Assembly: GCA_041665345.1 (NCBI GenBank)
Contig: JBAYJA010000001.1
Coordinates: 602,522-666,521, forward strand
Length of the DNA stretch: 64,000 bases
Direction: 5' to 3'
Source of the DNA: Patescibacteria group bacterium
GTDB lineage: Bacteria > Patescibacteriota > Patescibacteriia > PEXW01
Under the pieces are notes generated by a model. That model worked only from the letters and a program-made list of their open reading frames with translations, made no database searches and was not told where the DNA came from. The number at the start of each line of letters is the position of its first letter. Positions within the stretch are counted from its first letter, which is position 1. The translations under genes were made by a program, and so were the position numbers. Of the stretch, positions 23,743 through 32,502 are shown piece after piece.

Positions 23743-25623
23743 CTACTTGAACCGCACGACCTGACCAAAAGCAATGGGTTGTTCAGGGTCAGACTCTTTG
23801 GCGAGCTTGGGTTTTTGGGCAGGTGGAATAGGCTTTGGCTCTTCTGCTGGTGTTTGCGTAGGTTGAGATGTCGCAGCTGGTGCAATTGGCCGCTGGGAGG
23901 CCTGGGGTGCTGGAACCTGTGGCTGCAGTGGCCGGGGTTGCTGGTTGAAGCGTGGTGAAGGATTGTACGACGGTCGTCCACCAGGGCCTTGCCGGCGGGG
24001 GCCTTGGTGCTGGCCAAAACTGGAACCACCTTCCCGCCCAGGGCCGGTGGGACGAGGACCTTGTGGACGTGGGTACGGCGGTCTTTCAGAACGGGGTGCA
24101 GGTGACGCTGTACGATTTTCGCTGGGTGGTGCTGTTGGCTGGCTTGGCTGCGACTGTGGCAGCAAATCGCTGAGCTTCATTGCTGGTTGCTCAGGCGTGC
24201 TGGCGACAACTGGTTCCACCTCCACTTGGTCACGCTGGAAGAGATTATTTGGCGGCCGGCGCTTCTTGCCCTCTGCCCGGTATGGCGACTCCTCTTGCTG
24301 CACGGCAATGTTCTCCTCTTCAGCCGAAGCTCGGTACACCTCATCAACTCCGCTCCAGCGGAGAATTTTCTCTTCAACTTCTTTCTGTGGGGCGCTGTAC
24401 CGTTCCCGTGAAGCAGCAATCACCTTTGCTCGGTTGTCAGTTCGACCACCCACGGGCGGCAACGTGGTAGCGCTAAACGGTTCAGAGGCAACCCCGTCAA
24501 TCATCAACTTGAGGTAGATTTCGTACTTAGGGAGGTTCACTAAATCCACCTGGGTAAAGGTCGGGAAAAACTCTTTTTCCAAAAATTCACCATCTGCCCC
24601 ACCCACCCGGAATGCCATAATCGTACCCACGTTCCCAAAGACCGCCGGTGCAACCTTCTCATCCAACTGCTCAATGTACTGGTGGGCAATGGTGAGATTC
24701 AAACGGTACTTCCGAGCTTCGGAGAGAATGTTCGCAAAACTCTCCGTGGCAAAGTTTTGGAATTCGTCCACGTACAGGAAGAAGTCATGACGCTCTTCTT
24801 CCGGAATGTCCACCCGGCTCATGGCTGCCAGCTGCATGCGAGTAATCATCATGGCGCCCAGCAAGGCAGAGTTATCTTCACCAATGCGACCTTTGGAAAG
24901 GTTGAAGAGCAAAATTTTTCGGCTGTCCATTATTTCCCGCAAATCAATGGAACTCTTGGACTGGCCAACAATGTTGCGAATAATGGCACTGGAGAGAAAT
25001 TGCCCAACCTTGTTTTGAATTGGGGCCACTGCTTCATTCCGAAATTTGTCATTGTAATTATTAAATTCATCAACCCAAAAACCCTTGACGATTGGATCAG
25101 TGACCTTGGTGAGTACGCGGGTGCGGTAATTCCGGTCAACCAGCATCCGCGCCACCCCCAACATGGTTGAGCCAGGATACTCCAAGAGTGCGAGAATGGT
25201 GTTGTTCAAGATGTACTCCATACGCGCAGACCACACCCCTTCCCAAATCTTGGTAAACACACCCATTAAACCGGAAGCAACTAAGTGCCGCTGCGTTGCG
25301 TCCACTGCTTCCAGTACGTTGAACGCAATGGGGTACTCCATGTCAGACGGATTGAAGTACACCACATCATTCACTCGGTGGTTGGGAATGAAGTCTAAGA
25401 CTTTTTCCACCAGGTCGCCGTGCGGGTCAACCAGGGCTAAGCCATGACCAGCGTTGATATCATTAATAATCAAATTTTCCAAAACCGTGGTTTTGCCCAT
25501 ACCCGTCTTCCCAATGAGGTACATGTGGCGCCGGCGGTCATCCAGCTTTATGCCAAAACGCCGATGCCCACCCTGGTAATTGGTGGCAGCAAAAACGTTA
25601 ATTTCTGGACGCGCTTCAGGCAT
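23743..25623 (-). CDS. VirD4/TraG/TraD (TrwB)-like coupling-protein-type P-loop ATPase lacking N-terminal TM domain, with long Pro/Gln-rich C-terminal tail
   Basis: Walker A LIGKTGMGKTT at aa 35-45, then VDPHGD and Walker B FFLYVDEFQNF, matching the T4CP/FtsK-HerA superfamily. No hydrophobic N-terminus. The last ~150 aa are P/Q/S-rich and disordered. Confidence 0.65.
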   Translation of the reverse strand: MPEARPEINVFAATNYQGGHRRFGIKLDDRRRHMYLIGKTGMGKTTVLENLIINDINAGHGLALVDPHGDLVEKVLDFIPNHRVNDVVYFNPSDMEYPIAFNVLEAVDATQRHLVASGLMGVFTKIWEGVWSARMEYILNNTILALLEYPGSTMLGVARMLVDRNYRTRVLTKVTDPIVKGFWVDEFNNYNDKFRNEAVAPIQNKVGQFLSSAIIRNIVGQSKSSIDLREIMDSRKILLFNLSKGRIGEDNSALLGAMMITRMQLAAMSRVDIPEEERHDFFLYVDEFQNFATESFANILSEARKYRLNLTIAHQYIEQLDEKVAPAVFGNVGTIMAFRVGGADGEFLEKEFFPTFTQVDLVNLPKYEIYLKLMIDGVASEPFSATTLPPVGGRTDNRAKVIAASRERYSAPQKEVEEKILRWSGVDEVYRASAEEENIAVQQEESPYRAEGKKRRPPNNLFQRDQVEVEPVVASTPEQPAMKLSDLLPQSQPSQPTAPPSENRTASPAPRSERPPYPRPQGPRPTGPGREGGSSFGQHQGPRRQGPGGRPSYNPSPRFNQQPRPLQPQVPAPQASQRPIAPAATSQPTQTPAEEPKPIPPAQKPKLAKESDPEQPIAFGQVVRFK

Positions 25624-25625
25624 AG

Positions 25626-27176
25626 TTACTCAATGAAAGGAAGATTTGTTGGAATTTGCGGTTGCGGTGGTGCAGGCTCCGTTGGCTGCGGTTGCGCTGG
25701 GGCTACAGCTGGGGGCGGGGTCAGTGGCTCTGCTGTGGGAAGTGCTGCCGGCGCTGAGGCTTTTGCGGCAACTGAAGCTGAGCGCATTTTTTGGATAATT
25801 TGTGGGGTTTCCGTTGGCAGGTAAACTGGCGCCCCGCCCCGCTTCGTCTCCGATTTCTGCACTTGCCCAGCTTTCACGTCAATGGTTGGGAAGTGGAAAA
25901 TGGATGCCATTTCTTCAACATTCATGTAGATTGCTTCGCGGCCACGCCACACCGAACGAATGCGATAGTTGTACAAATTACGCCGCTTCCGGTCTCGCAT
26001 CCGGTACTCCTTCAAAAGCACAATATCACTGGTCTTTGTGAGTTTGCTAAAGGTAAAAATGTTACTATCCGCAATTGCGTACTGCTTCAACGCACCAACG
26101 ACGCCGTTCACGCCCTTGGCTTTGTTAAAAGGTTTCCGACCATCTGGCCCGGGCGTGACTTTCCCCCAGTAAATGAAACGACCCTTGACCTTGAAAGCGA
26201 TTTTCGAAAGCTTCATTTCAATCTGGGTTACCGTATCCCGCTCACCCGGAGAGAGGTGCAGCATGAGGGAAGGCGGATCATCCTTCTTCTGCTTCTGCGT
26301 TTCCCATGACCCAGGAGGGATGAGCGAGGCGGTGAGCGCTTCCCGAACACCCTGACCCACAAGCCGTGGCACCTCCCAAGGGCTACCTTTTTCCTTCCCC
26401 TTCTTGCCAATAAGCTTGTGCACAATTTCCTGTGCTTTGTCGCGCCAGGCGTAGTCCTCTTGCTGCAAGCACCACTGAATCCAAATCTGCTCGTCAGGAC
26501 TAATACGGCTCATAATTTCCAGTAACGCACCCATAGGATCAATGAGCTTCTGCGACATGCTGTGTTCGAAGAAGGGGTAGGTCCGGATTGGGTAGGCACT
26601 GTGGCGTAAAAAGTTTATTTGTGCGGACCAGCAGTCCCACTCTTTCTGATGCTCCAGCTCTCTAGGCTTCGGCATGAAATCCACATAGTCCTCCACCTCG
26701 GTAATTTCCGCATCTGGGTACTGAGCGTAAATTGCAGACTCAATGATGTCTCGTTGAATAATAAGGCAACGGACAAAAAATTGGACGTACCCACCCAAAC
26801 TCGCAATTTCTACCGACATGTTTGGCGGCACGAAGCCGTACGAAAAAAACTCGGTGAAAGGCAAGCCCCACTTCTCTGGAAAAATTGGCTGTTTGGAAAT
26901 GCCATGGAAGTGCGCGAACATCTGCTCCGCTGCTTTTGGAGTTTGCTCGCTATTTTTGGGCACATCCACCGCCAAGAGCACGTACTTCCCCACGTAGTTC
27001 TTCATGACGTACCGGGTGGTAATCCACTCAAACCAGGCGTACTTCATGCCAACGAGAAAGGTCCAAACCACAGCGATCCAGCCACCGTTGTTGAAAATGA
27101 AAATCGCCATACTGACCGGGTTTCCGGCAGAGGCGCGAAAATCATTCAGGAGAAGCGTGGTGTCGAGGAGGGCCAT
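25626..27176 (-). CDS. Hypothetical membrane-anchored protein (single N-terminal TM, 516 aa, Pro/Ala-rich tail)
   Basis: TM segment VSMAIFIFNNGGWIAVVWTFLVGM, a large domain of unknown family, and a C-terminal PAxP-rich tail. Lies 2 nt upstream of the ATPase gene. Confidence 0.5.
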   Translation of the reverse strand: MALLDTTLLLNDFRASAGNPVSMAIFIFNNGGWIAVVWTFLVGMKYAWFEWITTRYVMKNYVGKYVLLAVDVPKNSEQTPKAAEQMFAHFHGISKQPIFPEKWGLPFTEFFSYGFVPPNMSVEIASLGGYVQFFVRCLIIQRDIIESAIYAQYPDAEITEVEDYVDFMPKPRELEHQKEWDCWSAQINFLRHSAYPIRTYPFFEHSMSQKLIDPMGALLEIMSRISPDEQIWIQWCLQQEDYAWRDKAQEIVHKLIGKKGKEKGSPWEVPRLVGQGVREALTASLIPPGSWETQKQKKDDPPSLMLHLSPGERDTVTQIEMKLSKIAFKVKGRFIYWGKVTPGPDGRKPFNKAKGVNGVVGALKQYAIADSNIFTFSKLTKTSDIVLLKEYRMRDRKRRNLYNYRIRSVWRGREAIYMNVEEMASIFHFPTIDVKAGQVQKSETKRGGAPVYLPTETPQIIQKMRSASVAAKASAPAALPTAEPLTPPPAVAPAQPQPTEPAPPQPQIPTNLPFIE

Positions 27177-27182
27177 CGTGAA

Positions 27183-28325
27183 TTAGGCCGAAGGTACGTT
27201 TGCGAGGGTGTACTCGCCGGTTGGGAGTTTGGTAAATTTGGAACGATTGGTGAGTGCCAGGTGGATGGTATTTCGTTTCACGACGCGCTGCTTCAGCACC
27301 TCCTGCACCAGTTCATCACGTCGCATTGGTCGGCCAGCTTTCTGTAAGGTAGTCACAAGTATGTCAGCAACTACGCCTGGCTGAAAGCCCCATTCCTGCA
27401 GAGCATAAATTCCACGGCCAATGAGCACGTACTCTTTATTGAGAATGAGCTCATTATGCACGGTTGGTGCGTACGCAGTCCGATGATCAAATTTTGCTTC
27501 ATTAATGAGCCGAGTGATCTCATTGAAGTGTAGGGGTTTCTTTGCCTTCTGTAGCACTAAGTGTATCTTATCATTCATTCGCTTGGGGACGATACTCCCC
27601 CACGCCACCAAGCCATACTCATCGTACGGATTACGAGCTAAAACCGTGCTGACATCAATGTACGCACTAATGGCGTTGTCGGTTAACTGAAAGCGGTGTT
27701 CCTGTGCGAAAGCGGTTTTTCCAATTTCTTGGAGCAATTCTTGCAATTTTATTGGTGTCTGACGTGCTTCGAGAATCCGCACCGCCTCGGTAATGGTATC
27801 AGCTACTAAGTGCACCGGGGCAGTCACAGACTGCCACGCTGGCCAGTAGCTTGGATTCTCCTGGAACCGCTTGCAACGATCAGCAAGCAAAAATTCCATC
27901 AAGAAGAGTGTGCAGGCGCGGTAGCCTGCATGCGTATCATTGACTCCCAAAAGTTGCTGCAGAAACATTTCTTCCCGCATGACTCCGCCGTGCTGGTCAA
28001 GCACTGTGGTAATAGCGTCTGCTACCGGTTGCAATAATTCATGCACGCCGTGCAATTTTCGGAGTTTCCCAATTGCGCCAGTGGCAATTTGACGAACCCG
28101 TTCTCGCGTCACCTTGTAGTAGGCACCAATCATCTCCAGGGTTTGCGCATCTTCTCCATTGAGGGCATGCCGACGACGCAAAATATCCTCTTCCCGAGTG
28201 GGTAAAGATTTTAGCAGCGTGGTTACCACCTCAACTGGGTTGAAGTGCTCAATCTCCTGGGTCTGCTTCTGGGAGAGTACTCGGTCGAGAATGGAACTGG
28301 TATTGTCGCTTTGCACGTTGTCCAT
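27183..28325 (-). CDS. Sigma-70 region 4-like HTH protein with large C-terminal domain of unknown function
   Basis: Residues ~45-100 LPTREEDILRRRHALNGEDAQTLEMIGAYYKVTRERVRQIATGAIGKLRK match the sigma-70 r4.2 HTH. Start placed at ATG (MDNVQ), because the -10 box lies inside the longer GTG-started ORF. Confidence 0.55.
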   Translation of the reverse strand: MDNVQSDNTSSILDRVLSQKQTQEIEHFNPVEVVTTLLKSLPTREEDILRRRHALNGEDAQTLEMIGAYYKVTRERVRQIATGAIGKLRKLHGVHELLQPVADAITTVLDQHGGVMREEMFLQQLLGVNDTHAGYRACTLFLMEFLLADRCKRFQENPSYWPAWQSVTAPVHLVADTITEAVRILEARQTPIKLQELLQEIGKTAFAQEHRFQLTDNAISAYIDVSTVLARNPYDEYGLVAWGSIVPKRMNDKIHLVLQKAKKPLHFNEITRLINEAKFDHRTAYAPTVHNELILNKEYVLIGRGIYALQEWGFQPGVVADILVTTLQKAGRPMRRDELVQEVLKQRVVKRNTIHLALTNRSKFTKLPTGEYTLANVPSA

Positions 28326-28351
28326 ACAATGGATTTCGCTAATCGTTGCAT

Positions 28352-28380
28352 AGTATATCACTTTGTTTACAACATGTCAA
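28352..28380 (-). promoter_or_regulatory. Sigma70 promoter TTGACA-N17-TATACT for the three-gene operon
   Basis: Reverse complement reads TTGACAtgttgtaaacaaagtgaTATACT, ~27 nt upstream of the ATG at 28325. Confidence 0.5.
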
Positions 28381-28429: not shown

Positions 28430-29332
28430 TTACGCCCGCCGCCGTTGCTTCCAGTTGTTCCAAACAACGAGCAAGGATGCAGCGACAAAAATAGAGGAAT
28501 ACGTTCCGGCGGCTATCCCGATGAGCAATGCAAGAATGAAGTACTGTATGGAACCCCCACCAAAGAGCACAAGCGCAATGAGAATGAAAATTGCTGTAAG
28601 TGAGGTGTTGATTGACCGAACCATGGTCTGGTTCAAACTTTCATTCACCACCTCGTCAAAGTGCTTTCCGACAGACTGTAATACTCGTTCTCGAATCCGG
28701 TCGTACACCACAATGGTATCGTGGACAGAAAACCCAAGGACAGTCAAGAGGGCGGTGACGAAGAGCGCATCAACTTCGACGCCTCCAAAGTGGCCAAGGA
28801 TGGCGAAGACGCCGATGACAATGCCAACATCATGGATGAGGGCAATAATTGCCGAAGCACCGTATACCCATGACGGCACAGGACCAGCGGACACTTTCCG
28901 AAACGCCCAGGTAACGTAGACAACAATCAAAGCGAGTACAAGAATAGTTGCGACAATTGCTTTACGCTTCAGTTCGGCACCAATGGTTGGACCTATCGTT
29001 TCAAAACTTGCTTCCGCAAAAGTTGGGTCCTGCTTCTGCAGCGCCGCAAGAATCGTATCGTGCTGCTCATTGGTTATGTGTTCCATCCGAAGGATGATCC
29101 CCTTGCTTTCACTGGTTTGCACATGCACTGTACTCACACCAGTGTCACGAACTGCTTTTTCCAAATCAGCCGTGCTTGGCACAGTTTCAGCAAACGAGCC
29201 ACGGAGCAATGTGCCGCCGGTGAAATCAATACCCAGCCGTAAACCCCAGACTGCCCACGCCACAAGCCCAGGAATGACCAGAACGAGTGAGAGGGTAAAG
29301 AAGATGTTTCGCTTTTGGACTATCCGGTACAT
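28430..29332 (-). CDS. secF: Protein translocase subunit SecF
   Basis: Six-TM RND-like topology with a conserved SecF periplasmic domain, immediately downstream of secD. Confidence 0.85.
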   Translation of the reverse strand: MYRIVQKRNIFFTLSLVLVIPGLVAWAVWGLRLGIDFTGGTLLRGSFAETVPSTADLEKAVRDTGVSTVHVQTSESKGIILRMEHITNEQHDTILAALQKQDPTFAEASFETIGPTIGAELKRKAIVATILVLALIVVYVTWAFRKVSAGPVPSWVYGASAIIALIHDVGIVIGVFAILGHFGGVEVDALFVTALLTVLGFSVHDTIVVYDRIRERVLQSVGKHFDEVVNESLNQTMVRSINTSLTAIFILIALVLFGGGSIQYFILALLIGIAAGTYSSIFVAASLLVVWNNWKQRRRA

Positions 29333-29335
29333 AAA

Positions 29336-31054
29336 TTACTTCGGTTCAGACGAATCAAGACGGACACCGTACAAGCTCAATTTTTGCGCCCATTTGAATT
29401 GTATGACCAAGCGGAGCAAATTCCGGGTCACGGTAATTGCAGAGAAGAGACTTACCACAATACCAATGAGTAACGTAATGGCAAAACCTTTAATGAGACT
29501 GGAACCAAACCAAATGAGAATGAGCGCCGTAATCATGCTCGAAGCATTGGAGTCTCGAATGGAAAGCCACGCTCGTTTAAAGCCTTCTTGGATTGCGCTA
29601 TCCAACGGGTGCCCGGCTCGCAACTCTTCTTTCGTTCGCTCAAAAATGAGGATATTCGCATCAACAGCAATGCCTATGGTCAAAATGAATCCAGCGATCC
29701 CAGCTAAGGTGAGCGTCACTGGCCAGAGTTTGAAAATCGTCAGCACCAGCAAGGTGTACAGACCCAACGCGATCACCGAGAGGAAGCCTGGTAAACGGTA
29801 GAAAAAAATCATGAATAGTGCCACGACGATGATTCCCAAAAGCCCAGCAAATAAGCTGCGCTGAATTGAATCTGCACCCAATGAAGCACCAACGGTTTGC
29901 TGGCTCACAAGGGTAACGGGAACAGGAAGCGCGCCGGCATTCAGGCGACGGGCCAGGTCTTTTGCATCTTTCAACGTAAAGCTTCCACTAATAACCGCAT
30001 TGCCACCGGTAATTTCCTGATTCACCGTTGGGTTACTGAGGATTTGGCCATCCAGGAAGATCGCTATGGTCTTCCCAATATTCCGCTTCGTAATTTCAGC
30101 GAAGAGTTTTGACCCCTCGTCGTTGAATGTGAGAGCCACCTCAGGCTCGCCAGTCGTTTGCGCAAACGTCACGTCTGCACGCTTCAACTGCTTGCCAGTT
30201 AAGCCAGTAGCAACAAATTGTGCACTCGTTTGGGCAGCAGGATCGGTAGTGGTGAAAAGGATATGACTTCCTCGAACTTCTTGCACATCTTTCCCATCAA
30301 CCTTTGTTGTCCGGGCTTCAATGCGCTTTATAATGTGGTAGCCAAATTGCGTTTTCACTAACTTGGACGTCACTTCTCCATCTTGCAGGTCATCGAAGAG
30401 GGCTTTCTCAAATTCCGCAACAAATGTACCACGCTGGGCAAAACCTAAATCGCCACCCTTTCCCTGTCCATCAGTTCCTGCATTACTTGGGTCTTGCGTA
30501 TTCTCATTTGCTAACTTCGCAAAGTCTGCGCCAGCCGTACGTGCCTGGGTTAAAATGCTTTCGGCTTTTTTCTTCACTTCGGCATTGGCTTTTTCAGCTG
30601 CCGCCTTCTGCTCAGCTGTAGGTGCGGGTGGCGTTCCCGCTTCTTGAAATTCCAAAATTGGCGTGTCACCAATGAGCTGGATTGCTTGGGAGATGTCCTT
30701 AATCCCAGCAAGCTCCACAATGATTCGCCATTTGTCCCCTACTCTACTGGTTTGGACTACTGGTTCTGATACTCCAAAAGCATTCACACGCTGTTCAATA
30801 ACGTCACGTGCGCTATCCAGTGCCGCGGCTTGATCAGCCGCAGCCAGAGCCTCTGTATTTGCTTCGTAGACCAAAGATGCTCCACCCTGTAAATCCAGCC
30901 CCAGGCGGAGGTCAAAAGACCGTTGCAAAAACGGCAATTTGACATTCAATTTTTCAGGAAGGGCAATGTGGGCGGTAACCGCGGTCAAGAGGATTATCCC
31001 ACCAAAGGCAGACCAGAGTTTTGTTCGTGTCGTCATAGGGCAAAAACGCGCCAA
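29336..31054 (-). CDS. secD: Protein translocase subunit SecD carrying an inserted parvulin-type PPIase domain
   Basis: SecD TM1 plus LGLDLQGG and a C-terminal six-TM bundle. Between ~aa 141 and 270 lies a rotamase domain (ADFAKLA...KGGDLGF...FVAEFEKALF...GEVTS..VKTQFGYHIIK..SHILF). Confidence 0.85.
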   Translation of the reverse strand: MARFCPMTTRTKLWSAFGGIILLTAVTAHIALPEKLNVKLPFLQRSFDLRLGLDLQGGASLVYEANTEALAAADQAAALDSARDVIEQRVNAFGVSEPVVQTSRVGDKWRIIVELAGIKDISQAIQLIGDTPILEFQEAGTPPAPTAEQKAAAEKANAEVKKKAESILTQARTAGADFAKLANENTQDPSNAGTDGQGKGGDLGFAQRGTFVAEFEKALFDDLQDGEVTSKLVKTQFGYHIIKRIEARTTKVDGKDVQEVRGSHILFTTTDPAAQTSAQFVATGLTGKQLKRADVTFAQTTGEPEVALTFNDEGSKLFAEITKRNIGKTIAIFLDGQILSNPTVNQEITGGNAVISGSFTLKDAKDLARRLNAGALPVPVTLVSQQTVGASLGADSIQRSLFAGLLGIIVVALFMIFFYRLPGFLSVIALGLYTLLVLTIFKLWPVTLTLAGIAGFILTIGIAVDANILIFERTKEELRAGHPLDSAIQEGFKRAWLSIRDSNASSMITALILIWFGSSLIKGFAITLLIGIVVSLFSAITVTRNLLRLVIQFKWAQKLSLYGVRLDSSEPK

Positions 31055-31119: not shown

Positions 31120-32502
31120 TTACTCCTGCACAACCACCGTACTACCAACGGTCATCCATTTGAACACCTCAGCCGACTCCTTGGGCGAAAGACGGACGCA
31201 GCCATGGGACACGCGGGTGCCAAGATGACTTGTTCCTTCGTAGTAGACGCCGCCATTCTTCAAACGCCAGTACGGTAATGAGTGAATACCATACGCTCCA
31301 TCGGCAGTAATTGCCATCCAATTATCCATGTACAGCGCGTACCGGCTGGAATACGCGGTGGGAATTTTGTTGTGAATTTGGAACGTGCCAATGGGCGTGG
31401 GCATTGACCACTTTCCAGAAGAGATGACATGCGTGGCAATGAGCTGCCCATCTTGGTAGCGGTACATTTTCTGTTCGGAGATATCAATGCGAATTGCTTT
31501 GCCGGTTGGAGATGCTGGCGCGCTTGTTGGCGCGGCTCCAGGGACAACCAAGACTTCATTCTCTGCATCCGCATCCACATTCACCGACGCGACATTCAAC
31601 CCGTAGGTTGCATTTTTCCCAAATGGTACAAAATTCACACCACCGCGTGCACCATCAACTTGGTAGCTAATCACACGACCCTCTTTTCCAGTAGTGGTGC
31701 CAATAAGAATTTCTGGAACCGCGCCTGCAGTGGCCACGCGAACTGCACTGGGTGTACCCGCGCTAGTGAAAGATTGGAATACCTCACCGGTTGGCTGAAA
31801 AATTTTTACCAGCGCATTGGTGTCTGCACTTACAGCAATAATTTCTGCTGCCTGATCACCATCAACATCCGCAACGGAAACATTCAAACCTTTTCGAAAG
31901 GCCTGTGGGTACGCGAAAAATTGGTGTACGCGAGTTCCGTTGCCCCGGAAGAGTACCACCTGTGGTCCACCACCTTTGCCCGGCGCGGCAATAATTTCTG
32001 CCCGACCATCCGCATCAATATCTCCAACCGTAACCGAAACACCACCTCGGAAAGCTTTATCGAACGCCAAGAATGCAGCACGGCGTATGCCGTCCGTGCT
32101 GTAGACACGAATCTCCGGCGTCGTCCCCTGCCCAAAGGCAACAACGACTTCTGGGCGACCATCTGCATTCAAATCACCAAGTGCCACACGTACAGCAGGG
32201 AGGCCTTTCACATTCTCCAGGTACTTCGTTGTGATTACTGAACCATCCAAACGCAGTAAAGAAAAACTTGGCCGCACTCCAGCAGGGCTGCCTATGATAA
32301 TTTCTGGTGTACCATCCAGAGTCGCATCCGCAATCACGACGCTCGCCCCAGCCGGAATTTTTGGCAGCGTTCGAATGATCTTTCCATTCTGGTCGTAGAC
32401 CCCGGAGACAACCTTTGCTGCAGCTTGTGAAATTTGCCCAAAACAAAAGACGCCTAATGCTATGGCGAGTACTCCCAGATAGTGGATGGATCGTAAATGC
32501 AT
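31120..32502 (-). CDS. Secreted L,D-transpeptidase (YkuD domain) with N-terminal FG-GAP/VCBS-like repeats
   Basis: Signal peptide, then repeated DxDGDGxxE-type units (DLNADGRPEVVV, DIDADGRAEIIA, DVDGDQAAEIIA), and a C-terminal YkuD catalytic motif SHGCVRL. Confidence 0.7.
   Translation of the reverse strand: MHLRSIHYLGVLAIALGVFCFGQISQAAAKVVSGVYDQNGKIIRTLPKIPAGASVVIADATLDGTPEIIIGSPAGVRPSFSLLRLDGSVITTKYLENVKGLPAVRVALGDLNADGRPEVVVAFGQGTTPEIRVYSTDGIRRAAFLAFDKAFRGGVSVTVGDIDADGRAEIIAAPGKGGGPQVVLFRGNGTRVHQFFAYPQAFRKGLNVSVADVDGDQAAEIIAVSADTNALVKIFQPTGEVFQSFTSAGTPSAVRVATAGAVPEILIGTTTGKEGRVISYQVDGARGGVNFVPFGKNATYGLNVASVNVDADAENEVLVVPGAAPTSAPASPTGKAIRIDISEQKMYRYQDGQLIATHVISSGKWSMPTPIGTFQIHNKIPTAYSSRYALYMDNWMAITADGAYGIHSLPYWRLKNGGVYYEGTSHLGTRVSHGCVRLSPKESAEVFKWMTVGSTVVVQE

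What the first reader, a model, noticed from the sequence alone, without database searches (positions are those of the whole stretch)
30244..30634. Parvulin-type PPIase domain inserted into the periplasmic head of SecD
Seen in the translated sequence: SecD residues ~141-270, between the conserved ..DTPILEF segment and the rest of the P1 domain, encode a complete rotamase (PpiC/PrsA/SurA-type). The evidence is ADFAKLA..S..KGGDLGF..GTFVAEFEKALF..DGEVTS.LVKTQFGYHIIK followed by SHILF.

Parvulins (PrsA, SurA, PpiD) normally act as separate periplasmic or extracytoplasmic foldases near the Sec exit. Here the foldase is built into the SecD head that contacts emerging substrates. This would place a chaperone/PPIase on the translocon itself, which is attractive in an organism with few periplasmic chaperones.
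Basis: partly seen in the sequence, partly recalled or inferred. Interest (0 to 1): 0.62.

Follow-up and report, generated by a model that had tools for sequence, protein, structure and literature searches.

The report
SecD carrying a built-in parvulin foldase
The SecD subunit of this candidate-phyla-radiation bacterium's protein-export machine carries a prolyl-isomerase (parvulin) folding domain spliced into its outward-facing arm; the arrangement is conserved in many related bacteria, and I found no paper that describes it.

Summary
Residues 141-270 of a 572-aa SecD (window 29336-31054, minus strand) match the Pfam parvulin profiles (E 5e-19). They lie between the SecD P1-base N-terminal segment and an intact P1-head domain. 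SecF follows 3 nt downstream.

It is not an assembly artefact. All 120 best homologues (56-100% identity, Patescibacteria/CPR) have the same architecture, as do 21 species-representative genomes and 60 of the 150 best 50%-identity cluster representatives.

One new detail: the domain appears circularly permuted. The strand with the first catalytic His (GSHILF) follows the last strand (GYHIIK) as a hairpin instead of opening the domain. Moving it to the front in silico restores a full-length profile match.

The best reading is a PrsA-like foldase fused to the arm of SecD that pulls on exported proteins. Catalysis, the domain's position relative to the substrate cavity, and whether free PrsA-like genes are missing from this genome were not tested. 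I found no paper describing the fusion. It is a new variant of known kinds.

The parts
29336..31054 (-). secD gene, 572 aa from TTG 31054 (the alternative ATG at 31036 gives the 566-aa NCBI protein P0001)
   Evidence: ORF. TIGR01129 scores 392.6 bits against a cutoff of 244.4. Thermus SecDF 3aqp matches at E 5.5e-83. Foldseek gives E 4e-24 to SecDF 5xan.
30962..31030 (-). TM1 of SecD (residues 9-31), which places what follows outside the cytoplasm
   Evidence: Helix 9-31 in the AF2 model. Topology is inferred by homology to solved SecDF.
30641..30817 (-). P1-base N-terminal segment (residues 80-138), ending in the conserved strand DTPILEFQE
   Evidence: Pfam SecD_1st, E 5.3e-17. Aligns to Thermus SecDF residues 23-118.
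30209..30637 (-). Whole insert relative to Thermus SecDF (residues 140-282): entry linker, parvulin domain, variable exit linker
   Evidence: The query region between residues 139 and 285 corresponds to only Thermus residues 118-160. The exit linker 269-282 has only 24% mean identity among homologues.
30251..30616 (-). Parvulin (PpiC-type PPIase) domain core, residues 147-268, in the order alpha1...beta4-beta1'
30251..30343 (-). Long beta-hairpin, residues 238-268: beta4 (GYHIIKRIEAR), a turn, then the relocated beta1' (VQEVRGSHILFT)
   Evidence: DSSP strands 238-252 and 255-268, equal to strands 100-114 and 117-130 in the domain-only model. Moving this strand to the front extends the PF00639 match from profile positions 8-96 to 1-96.
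30491..30493 (-). Codon for Asp188, at the position of Pin1 Cys113 / Par14 Asp74
   Evidence: Invariant in 121 of 121 sequences. The mapping onto Pin1 and Par14 is my own alignment from recalled sequences.
30350..30352 (-). Codon for Thr235, five residues before His240, as Pin1 Thr152 / Par14 Thr118
   Evidence: Thr in 101 and Ser in 20 of 121 sequences.
30335..30337 (-). Codon for His240 (the beta4 histidine, as Pin1 His157)
   Evidence: Invariant in 121 of 121 sequences.
30263..30265 (-). Codon for His264 (the beta1' histidine, as Pin1 His59)
   Evidence: Invariant in 121 of 121 sequences.
29921..30208 (-). P1-head subdomain (residues 283-378), intact
   Evidence: Pfam SecDF_P1_head, E 2.3e-32, profile positions 19-114. 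Aligns to Thermus residues 160 onward.
29408..29911 (-). TM2-TM6 bundle (residues 382-549), including the invariant Asp465, which aligns with Thermus TM4 Asp340
   Evidence: Pfam SecD_SecF_C. In the alignment, AVDAN matches Thermus AVDGN. D465 is invariant.
28430..29332 (-). secF, 300 aa, starting 3 nt after the secD stop codon
   Evidence: TIGR00966 scores 274 bits against a cutoff of 160. The junction sequence is shown. SecF directly follows SecD in 19 of the 21 related fusion loci; L015 and L018 end before it.

Best explanation
This is a genuine SecD of a Patescibacteria (CPR) bacterium, encoded next to SecF. Its extracytoplasmic P1 domain carries an extra parvulin-type PPIase domain of about 120 aa at the junction between P1 base and P1 head.

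The domain keeps the parvulin His/Asp/Thr/His active-site set. Its strand order looks circularly permuted: the beta1 strand, with the first catalytic His, comes after beta4 as a hairpin. The chain therefore enters at helix alpha1 and leaves after beta1'. In the canonical fold those two points are neighbours, which suits an inserted domain.

Proposed mechanism (inferred, not shown):
- SecDF uses the proton-motive force to swing the P1 head, which grips the emerging unfolded chain.
- The parvulin rides at the root of that arm, so it meets every substrate as it is pulled out and released.
- There it binds exposed hydrophobic or proline-containing stretches and catalyses Xaa-Pro cis/trans isomerisation.
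- In effect it does the job of the PrsA lipoprotein of monoderm bacteria, but in a fixed 1:1 ratio with the translocation motor.

Shown here: the domain's identity, its position in the sequence, its fold, and conservation of the architecture and of the active-site residues.

Inferred: catalytic activity, substrate contact, and spatial coupling to the head cavity.
For: - Domain identity: Pfam Rotamase and Rotamase_3 at E 6e-18 and 5e-19, flanked by the SecD_1st and SecDF_P1_head profiles. The SecD equivalog model scores above its cutoff.
- Not an artefact: all 120 best homologues carry PF00639/PF13616 together with the SecD domains. 21 GTDB species-representative loci have the order N part, parvulin, C part in one frame, and in 19 of them SecF lies directly downstream; L015 and L018 end before it. 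60 of the 150 best 50%-identity cluster representatives are SecD plus parvulin.
- Selection: the parvulin core has 59% mean identity, against 67-75% for the SecD parts and 24% for the exit linker. D188, H240 and H264 are invariant, T235 is T or S, and the GGDLG and F215 motifs are conserved.
- Permutation: the DSSP order is helix 147-172, helix 178-185, strand 202-207, helix 213-222, strand 238-252, strand 255-268, with no strand carrying HIL upstream. The native PF00639 match starts at profile position 8. When residues 253-270 are placed in front, the match covers 1-96 and gains 5-7 bits. A shuffled strand gives no gain, and 4 of 4 sequences tested behave the same way.
- Functional plausibility from the literature: the P1-head cavity contacts precursor proteins (PMC5974789). 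In E. coli, SurA binds the holotranslocon, and AlphaFold places its parvulin domains on the SecDF P1 head (PMC9987972). In Mycoplasma pneumoniae, PrsA-like parvulin lipoproteins form a complex with SecDF-SecYEG (bioRxiv 10.1101/2025.04.25.650208 and 10.1101/2024.09.05.611430).
Against: - No enzymatic or genetic data exist. Conserved parvulin histidines can also serve fold stability, so invariance does not prove catalysis.
- The position of the parvulin relative to the head cavity is unknown. pTM of the full model is only 0.55 and I had no coordinates.
- The permutation rests on a predicted structure and a modest gain in profile score. In SurA-type tandem parvulins the same 'beta4, about 15 aa, xHILL' pattern exists, but there the HIL strand belongs to the next domain.
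- Some SecD relatives (the Peribacteria type) carry a canonical-order parvulin instead.
- Whether this genome lacks a free PrsA-like foldase is untested.
Confidence: 0.7

Rival explanations
1. The inserted parvulin is a non-catalytic substrate-binding (holdase) module that simply enlarges the polypeptide-capturing surface of the P1 arm. This would resemble the inactive parvulin domain of PpiD or the chaperone role of SurA P1. On this view prolyl isomerisation is irrelevant.
For: - The fold and position are the same as in the best explanation.
- The P1 head is itself a promiscuous binder of unfolded chains (PMC5974789).
- Long-type SecD relatives carry an additional degenerate parvulin-like unit that lacks the histidines (GYYVFS), which shows that non-catalytic units are tolerated at this site.
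Against: All four active-site positions are kept in 121 of 121 sequences (D188, H240 and H264 invariant; T235 is T or S), along with the hydrophobic pocket residues F211/F215. Inactive parvulins usually lose these residues; that statement rests on my own knowledge of PpiD.
Confidence: 0.2
2. The domain has a structural or regulatory role unrelated to substrate folding. Examples: a strut that biases the swing between P1 head and base, or a docking site for another envelope component such as a cell-wall enzyme or pilus protein.
For: - The insertion lies exactly at the base-to-head connection, where motion originates.
- This region of P1 varies in length among SecDs: E. coli SecD has about 165 more residues than Thermus before the conserved head segment (alignments).
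- An L,D-transpeptidase gene lies directly upstream.
Against: - Conservation of a complete enzyme-type active site has no explanation in this model.
- The gene neighbourhood apart from secF is not conserved among the related loci: YkuD and SecA are adjacent only in L013.
Confidence: 0.08
3. The apparent fusion is an artefact: a frameshift, a chimeric assembly, or a gene-calling merge of a separate parvulin gene with secD.
For: None found. The only grounds for suspicion are that the sequence comes from a metagenome-assembled genome.
Against: - It is a single open frame with SecD profile matches on both sides of the insert.
- The identical protein occurs on two independently assembled long contigs.
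- The same architecture appears in more than 120 homologues down to 56% identity and in 21 species-representative genomes.
- The N-terminal SecD part alone would lack its head and its TM2-6 bundle.
Confidence: 0.01

Closest known systems
SecDF of Thermus thermophilus / Deinococcus radiodurans (PDB 3AQP, 5XAN, 5YHF)
   Same: It has TM1, the P1 base, the P1 head and the TM2-6 bundle, with the TM4 Asp conserved (D465, equivalent to Thermus D340). A SecF partner follows. Sequence match E 5.5e-83; Foldseek E 4e-24.
   Different: The stretch of about 40 aa between the base strand (VLEFRIV) and the head (LLTGADL) is replaced here by an insert of about 143 aa containing a parvulin domain. SecD and SecF are separate genes.
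PrsA foldase lipoprotein of Bacillus and other Gram-positive bacteria (PDB 4WO7, 1ZK6, 6VJ6)
   Different: There is no lipobox and no N/C (SurA-like) chaperone domain. The NCBIfam PrsA models score far below cutoff (42.9 against 361). The anchor is SecD itself, and the strand order is permuted.
SurA (tandem parvulins) and its reported contact with the SecDF P1 head
   Different: SurA is a soluble periplasmic protein with its own chaperone core. In SurA the HIL strand after beta4 starts the next parvulin domain. Here there is no next domain, and the strand is predicted to fold back onto the same one.
PpiD-YfgM at the SecYEG translocon
   Different: PpiD is a separate single-pass protein with a SurA-like domain. 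Its parvulin domain lacks catalytic activity (my own knowledge). Here the catalytic-type residues are invariant.
Mycoplasma pneumoniae 'dome' translocation-folding complex (Mdp444/436/489 with SecDF-SecYEG)
   Same: In a genome-reduced bacterium without an outer membrane, PrsA-like parvulin proteins are physically coupled to SecDF at the translocon exit (bioRxiv 10.1101/2025.04.25.650208; 10.1101/2024.09.05.611430).
   Different: There the coupling is non-covalent and involves large trimeric lipoproteins that form a chamber. Here a single small domain is spliced into SecD.

Membership tests
SecD (TIGR01129 / SecDF RND-type translocation motor) | Full-length match to the SecD equivalog model above its curated cutoff | tested here: met
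   392.6 bits against a cutoff of 244.4, covering residues 51-547 and model positions 1-397.
SecD (TIGR01129 / SecDF RND-type translocation motor) | P1 base, P1 head and six-TM architecture as in solved SecDF | tested here: met
   Pfam SecD_1st, SecDF_P1_head and SecD_SecF_C all match. The AF2 model matches 5xan, 3aqp and 3aqo.
SecD (TIGR01129 / SecDF RND-type translocation motor) | Conserved TM4 aspartate of the proton path (Thermus D340) | tested here: met
   Query AVD465AN aligns with Thermus AVD340GN. D465 is invariant in 86 sequences.
SecD (TIGR01129 / SecDF RND-type translocation motor) | Partner SecF encoded adjacently | tested here: met
   secF at 28430-29332 scores 274 bits on TIGR00966 against a cutoff of 160. 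The same order is seen in 19 of the 21 related fusion loci; L015 and L018 end before it.
SecD (TIGR01129 / SecDF RND-type translocation motor) | PMF-dependent stimulation of protein export | not testable with these tools
   Needs genetics or biochemistry.
Parvulin (PpiC-type PPIase; PF00639 / PF13616) | Profile match above the gathering threshold | tested here: met
   69.4 and 66.0 bits against cutoffs of 22.5 and 21.7.
Parvulin (PpiC-type PPIase; PF00639 / PF13616) | Parvulin fold (four-stranded sheet packed by helices) | tested here: met
   [not shown]
Parvulin (PpiC-type PPIase; PF00639 / PF13616) | Active-site set His(beta1) / Asp-or-Cys / Thr-or-Ser / His(beta4) | tested here: met
   H264, D188, T235 and H240 are all present. 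Three are invariant and T235 is T or S in 121 sequences. The mapping onto Pin1 and Par14 uses my own alignment.
Parvulin (PpiC-type PPIase; PF00639 / PF13616) | Canonical element order, with beta1 first (beta1-alpha1...beta4) | tested here: not met
   The profile match begins at position 8 and no HIL strand lies upstream. The HIL strand follows beta4. In-silico re-permutation restores profile positions 1-96. It is therefore a permuted variant.
Parvulin (PpiC-type PPIase; PF00639 / PF13616) | Prolyl cis/trans isomerase activity | not testable with these tools
   Needs an enzyme assay.
PrsA foldase (NCBIfam PRK03095 and related models) | Full-length match above cutoff; lipoprotein with an N/C SurA-like chaperone domain flanking the parvulin | tested here: not met
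   The best PrsA model scores 42.9 bits against a cutoff of 361 and matches only the parvulin part. No SurA_N-type Pfam hit was found. The protein may work like PrsA but is not a member.
SurA / PpiD | SurA-like N-terminal chaperone domain | tested here: not met
   No SurA_N, SurA_N_2 or SurA_N_3 hit in this protein. By contrast, the standalone proteins L026, L039 and L043 do have such hits.

The most novel reading that the evidence does not exclude
In these CPR bacteria the SecD-embedded, circularly permuted parvulin is the main or only extracytoplasmic foldase. Together with the P1 head it forms a proton-driven 'pull-and-fold' device. Each swing of the head hands the gripped segment to the PPIase groove, so translocation and prolyl isomerisation are mechanically coupled. 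The fusion would then be a Rosetta-stone record of a general parvulin-SecDF partnership that is non-covalent elsewhere: SurA-SecDF in E. coli and the PrsA-like dome with SecDF in Mycoplasma.
Probability: 0.2. Interest if true: 0.8.

Novelty: new variant of a known kind. Interest (0 to 1): 0.6.

Why it matters
SecDF is thought to pull proteins out of SecYEG, and parvulin foldases (PrsA, SurA, PpiD) are thought to receive them. How the two are physically coupled is only now being worked out, for example through SurA on the holotranslocon and the Mycoplasma dome complex.

A natural, widely conserved covalent fusion of a catalytically equipped parvulin to the root of the SecD arm is independent evolutionary evidence that the two activities belong together. 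It also offers a compact single-chain system in which to test the coupling.

The work also points to a circularly permuted form of the parvulin fold. This form is shared with free PrsA-like proteins of several phyla. It is of interest for the evolution of protein folds and for domain annotation, because current profiles miss the relocated strand.

For CPR biology, it identifies a probable envelope-proteostasis factor that annotation currently hides under the plain name 'SecD'.

Tried and rejected
- **AFDB search.** The afdb50 fold search, intended to give UniProt and organism names for the architecture, was unavailable.
- **Coordinates.** The tools return no model coordinates or PAE. I therefore could not measure whether beta1' contacts beta4 and beta2, or where the parvulin groove points relative to the head cavity. 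I relied on the DSSP order, confidence values and profile tests.
- **GTDB scan.** The scan was dominated by the QFGYHIIK pattern. 59 of its 80 loci are ordinary free parvulins of many phyla. The longer matches that looked like fusions (L042, L046, L058, L062, L023, L078, L043, L040) turned out to be SurA/PpiD-type proteins. I found no verified fusion outside CPR.
- **Cluster look-up.** The cluster-member look-up for taxonomy gave almost no names.
- **Free foldase in this genome.** Only the 64-kb window and the ±10-kb flanks of related loci could be searched, and both were negative. That is weak evidence.
- **Conserved SecD strand as beta1.** I considered whether the conserved SecD strand PILEFQE could serve as the parvulin beta1. 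I rejected this because it belongs to the SecD_1st profile found in all SecDs, it lacks the His, and the invariant H264 strand fits the beta1 profile.
- **Literature.** Searches for SecD with parvulin, PPIase, rotamase or PpiC, for CPR with PrsA or SecDF, and for parvulin with circular permutation found no description of the fusion or of the permutation.
Full report
**What is there.** The finding lies inside one uninterrupted ORF on the minus strand, 29336-31054. It has 572 aa counted from a TTG. NCBI's version of the identical protein starts six codons later, at ATG 31036 (P0001). Pfam places four SecD elements and one foreign element along it:
- SecD_1st, residues 80-138.
- Rotamase_3 / Rotamase (PpiC-type PPIase), residues 150-246: E 4.9e-19 and 6.2e-18, about 66-69 bits against cutoffs near 22.
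- SecDF_P1_head, residues 283-378: E 2.3e-32.
- SecD_SecF_C, residues 382-549.

The NCBIfam SecD equivalog model TIGR01129 scores 392.6 bits against a cutoff of 244.4. SecF (TIGR00966, 274 bits) starts 3 nt after the secD stop. The finding's coordinates correspond to residues 141-270.

**Where the insert sits.** Against Thermus thermophilus SecDF (3AQP), query residues 39-139 align with Thermus 23-118, and query 285-549 align with Thermus 160-424.
- About 143 residues here take the place of about 40 in Thermus, directly after the conserved base strand (DTPILEFQE here, AVLEFRIV in Thermus) and before the head segment (TGLTGKQL here, LLTGADL in Thermus).
- The head profile is otherwise complete, matching positions 19-114 of 114. 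The full-length AF2 model (mean pLDDT 85) still matches solved SecDF and the isolated P1 domain.
- The parvulin is therefore an additional domain at the base-to-head junction and does not replace the head.
- Helix 9-31 is TM1 and helices from 394 onward form TM2-6, so by homology the insert is extracytoplasmic.
- The TM4 aspartate of the proton path is conserved: D465 aligns with Thermus D340 and is invariant.

**It is not an artefact.**
- The identical protein occurs on two independently assembled contigs of 0.70 and 1.08 Mb.
- All 120 best database homologues (56-100% identity) carry PF00639/PF13616 together with the SecD domains. The names given include Patescibacteria, Kerfeldbacteria and Nomurabacteria.
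- In a scan of GTDB species-representative genomes, 21 loci encode the order SecD N part, parvulin, SecD C part in one frame; SecF lies directly downstream in 19 of them, and L015 and L018 end before it. Titles include Buchananbacteria, Magasanikiibacteriota, Parcubacteria and Peribacteria.
- A search of 1.84 billion cluster representatives with residues 100-300 found that 60 of the 150 best representatives are SecD-with-parvulin proteins.
- Some records are labelled Gammaproteobacteria, Bathyarchaeia, Bdellovibrionales, Lysobacteraceae or Bacteroidales. These are third-party MAGs or short contigs, and I could not verify the labels.
- The longer matches outside CPR that I checked by Pfam were ordinary SurA/PpiD proteins.

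**The domain is a parvulin with its active site kept.**
- A domain-only AF2 model of residues 139-286 has mean pLDDT 90 and pTM 0.81.
- Across 121 aligned sequences, D188, H240 and H264 are invariant and T235 is T (101) or S (20). GGDLG, F215 and G238 are essentially invariant.
- By my own alignment to Par10, Par14 and Pin1 (recalled sequences, so a lead and not a test), these correspond to the Asp/Cys-His-His-Thr network: Pin1 C113, H59, H157 and T152.
- The parvulin core is nearly as conserved (59% mean identity) as the SecD parts (67-75%). The exit linker is free to vary (24%).

**A circular permutation.** Canonical parvulins begin with strand beta1 (xxHILv, carrying the first catalytic His) and end with beta4 (GyHIIk).
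- Here the Pfam match starts only at profile position 8, and no HIL strand precedes helix alpha1.
- The motif GSHILF instead follows beta4 by about 20 residues.
- Both AF2 models predict beta4 (238-252) and this strand (255-268) as one long hairpin at pLDDT 94-98.
- I tested homology of the strand directly. Moving residues 253-270 in front of alpha1 in silico extends the PF00639 match from positions 8-96 to 1-96 and raises the score by 5-7 bits. For PF13616 the match goes from 28-114 to 13-114.
- A shuffled version of the strand gives no gain, and three other family members behave the same way.
- With H264 invariant, the most economical reading is that beta1 has been relocated behind beta4. 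In the canonical fold the end of beta1 and the start of alpha1 are adjacent, so the permuted domain's two ends are close together, which suits an inserted domain.
- This is a prediction (confidence about 0.75), because I had no coordinates to measure contacts.

**Relatives of the permuted unit.**
- The same order (no upstream HIL, SHILI after GYHIIK) occurs in free, membrane-anchored SurA_N-plus-parvulin proteins. These are PrsA-like proteins of Saccharibacteria (L026, L027, L061), Paceibacter (L032) and another Patescibacteria MAG (L039). It also occurs in Pyrinomonadaceae, Firestonebacteria and Cloacimonadota.
- In SurA-type tandem parvulins, such as B. fragilis PPIase 8HM4, the pattern 'GFHIIQ..., about 12 aa...TRHILLK' also occurs. 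There the HIL strand opens the next domain.
- Many of the closest non-SecD representatives are such tandem arrays.
- My inference is that the SecD insert is a register-shifted excerpt (alpha1 of one unit through beta1 of the next) of a tandem array. This is the classical duplication-and-truncation route to a circular permutation.
- A second, longer SecD type supports a history involving tandem units. It is found in Peribacteria L018 and in 16 of the 60 representatives, at about 655-1075 aa. At the same site it carries a degenerate parvulin-like unit followed by a canonical-order parvulin (VKASHILL...GYHIIK).

**How it most likely works.** Published structures and crosslinking indicate that the P1 head has an amphiphilic cavity that contacts precursor proteins, and that it swings between membrane-facing and upright forms, driven by proton flow (PMC5974789).
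- A catalytically equipped parvulin at the root of this arm would meet each emerging chain.
- I propose it acts as a PrsA-like foldase and holdase tethered 1:1 to the motor.
- Independent work makes this partnership plausible. SurA binds the E. coli holotranslocon, and AlphaFold places its parvulin domains on the SecDF P1 head (PMC9987972). In Mycoplasma pneumoniae, PrsA-like parvulin lipoproteins form a complex with SecDF-SecYEG (bioRxiv 10.1101/2025.04.25.650208; 10.1101/2024.09.05.611430).
- The CPR protein looks like the covalent version of that partnership.
- The main rival is that the domain serves only as an extra binding surface without catalysis. Sequence alone cannot exclude this.
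- Structural or regulatory roles are less likely, given the conserved active site.

**What remains open.**
No other parvulin lies in the 64-kb window or in the flanks of the 21 related loci.
- Free PrsA-like genes exist in some CPR lineages, and a survey reports PrsA in all CPR classes (PMC9166423).
- Catalysis, substrate contact and the spatial relation to the head cavity all need experiments or coordinates.

**Novelty and score.**
- Full-text searches combining SecD or SecDF with parvulin, PPIase, rotamase or PpiC, and CPR with PrsA or SecDF, found no description of the fusion. The search for 'parvulin' with 'circular permutation' returned nothing.
- Database pipelines already attach the Pfam domains to these proteins but name them plain SecD.
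- Both parent families are well known, so I rate this a new variant of a known kind.
- Interest is about 0.6. It would be a real surprise for Sec specialists, it offers a ready-made test system for translocation-folding coupling, and the fold permutation is a bonus.

Noticed in passing
L026:9281-10396, L027:9239-10354, L061:1080-2168, L032:9092-10390, L039:1385-2434; also L022:9077-10594, L024:2744-4087, L035:989-2782, L068:1616-3145: These are free, membrane-anchored SurA_N-plus-parvulin (PrsA-like) proteins whose parvulin has the same order as the SecD insert, with beta1 after beta4: no HIL strand upstream, and 'SHILI' 12-25 aa after GYHIIK. They occur in Saccharibacteria, Paceibacter and other CPR lineages, and also in Pyrinomonadaceae, Firestonebacteria and Cloacimonadota. 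The permuted parvulin is therefore a wider, apparently undescribed subclass.
   Followed up: partly
L018:9821-12199 (Candidatus Peribacteria); cluster representatives P0134, P0144, P0152, P0159, P0164, P0186, P0224, P0253: This is a second, longer type of SecD insert, about 390 aa at the same site. It consists of a degenerate parvulin-like unit (GYYVFS, without the histidines) followed by a canonical-order parvulin (VKASHILL...GYHIIK). Some representatives are 900-1075 aa and may be SecDF fusions or carry further domains.
   Followed up: partly
L001, L002, L003, L004, L006, L008, L009, L010, L014, L020; P0064: These contigs carry the CPR-type SecD-parvulin gene (51-59% identical), but their record titles say Gammaproteobacteria, Bathyarchaeia, Bdellovibrionales, Lysobacteraceae or Bacteroidales. 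They are probably mislabelled or misbinned MAG contigs. If the labels were correct, the fusion would extend beyond CPR.
   Followed up: no
window 23743-27176 (-): A TrwB/TraG-like type IV coupling ATPase (626 aa) lies next to a 516-aa protein that has no Pfam hit and a proline-rich C-terminal tail. Both are just downstream of the secDF cluster on the same strand.
   Followed up: no
window 27183-28361 (-): This 392-aa protein combines a Sigma-70 region 4 helix-turn-helix (residues 49-102) with a HARE-HTH segment. It has no other sigma-factor regions and lies immediately downstream of secF.
   Followed up: no
window 31120-32502 (-): A 460-aa secreted protein with FG-GAP repeats fused to a YkuD L,D-transpeptidase domain lies directly upstream of secD. 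The same neighbour (54% identity), together with SecA, is kept in the closest related locus, L013.
   Followed up: partly
[not shown]
   Followed up: no
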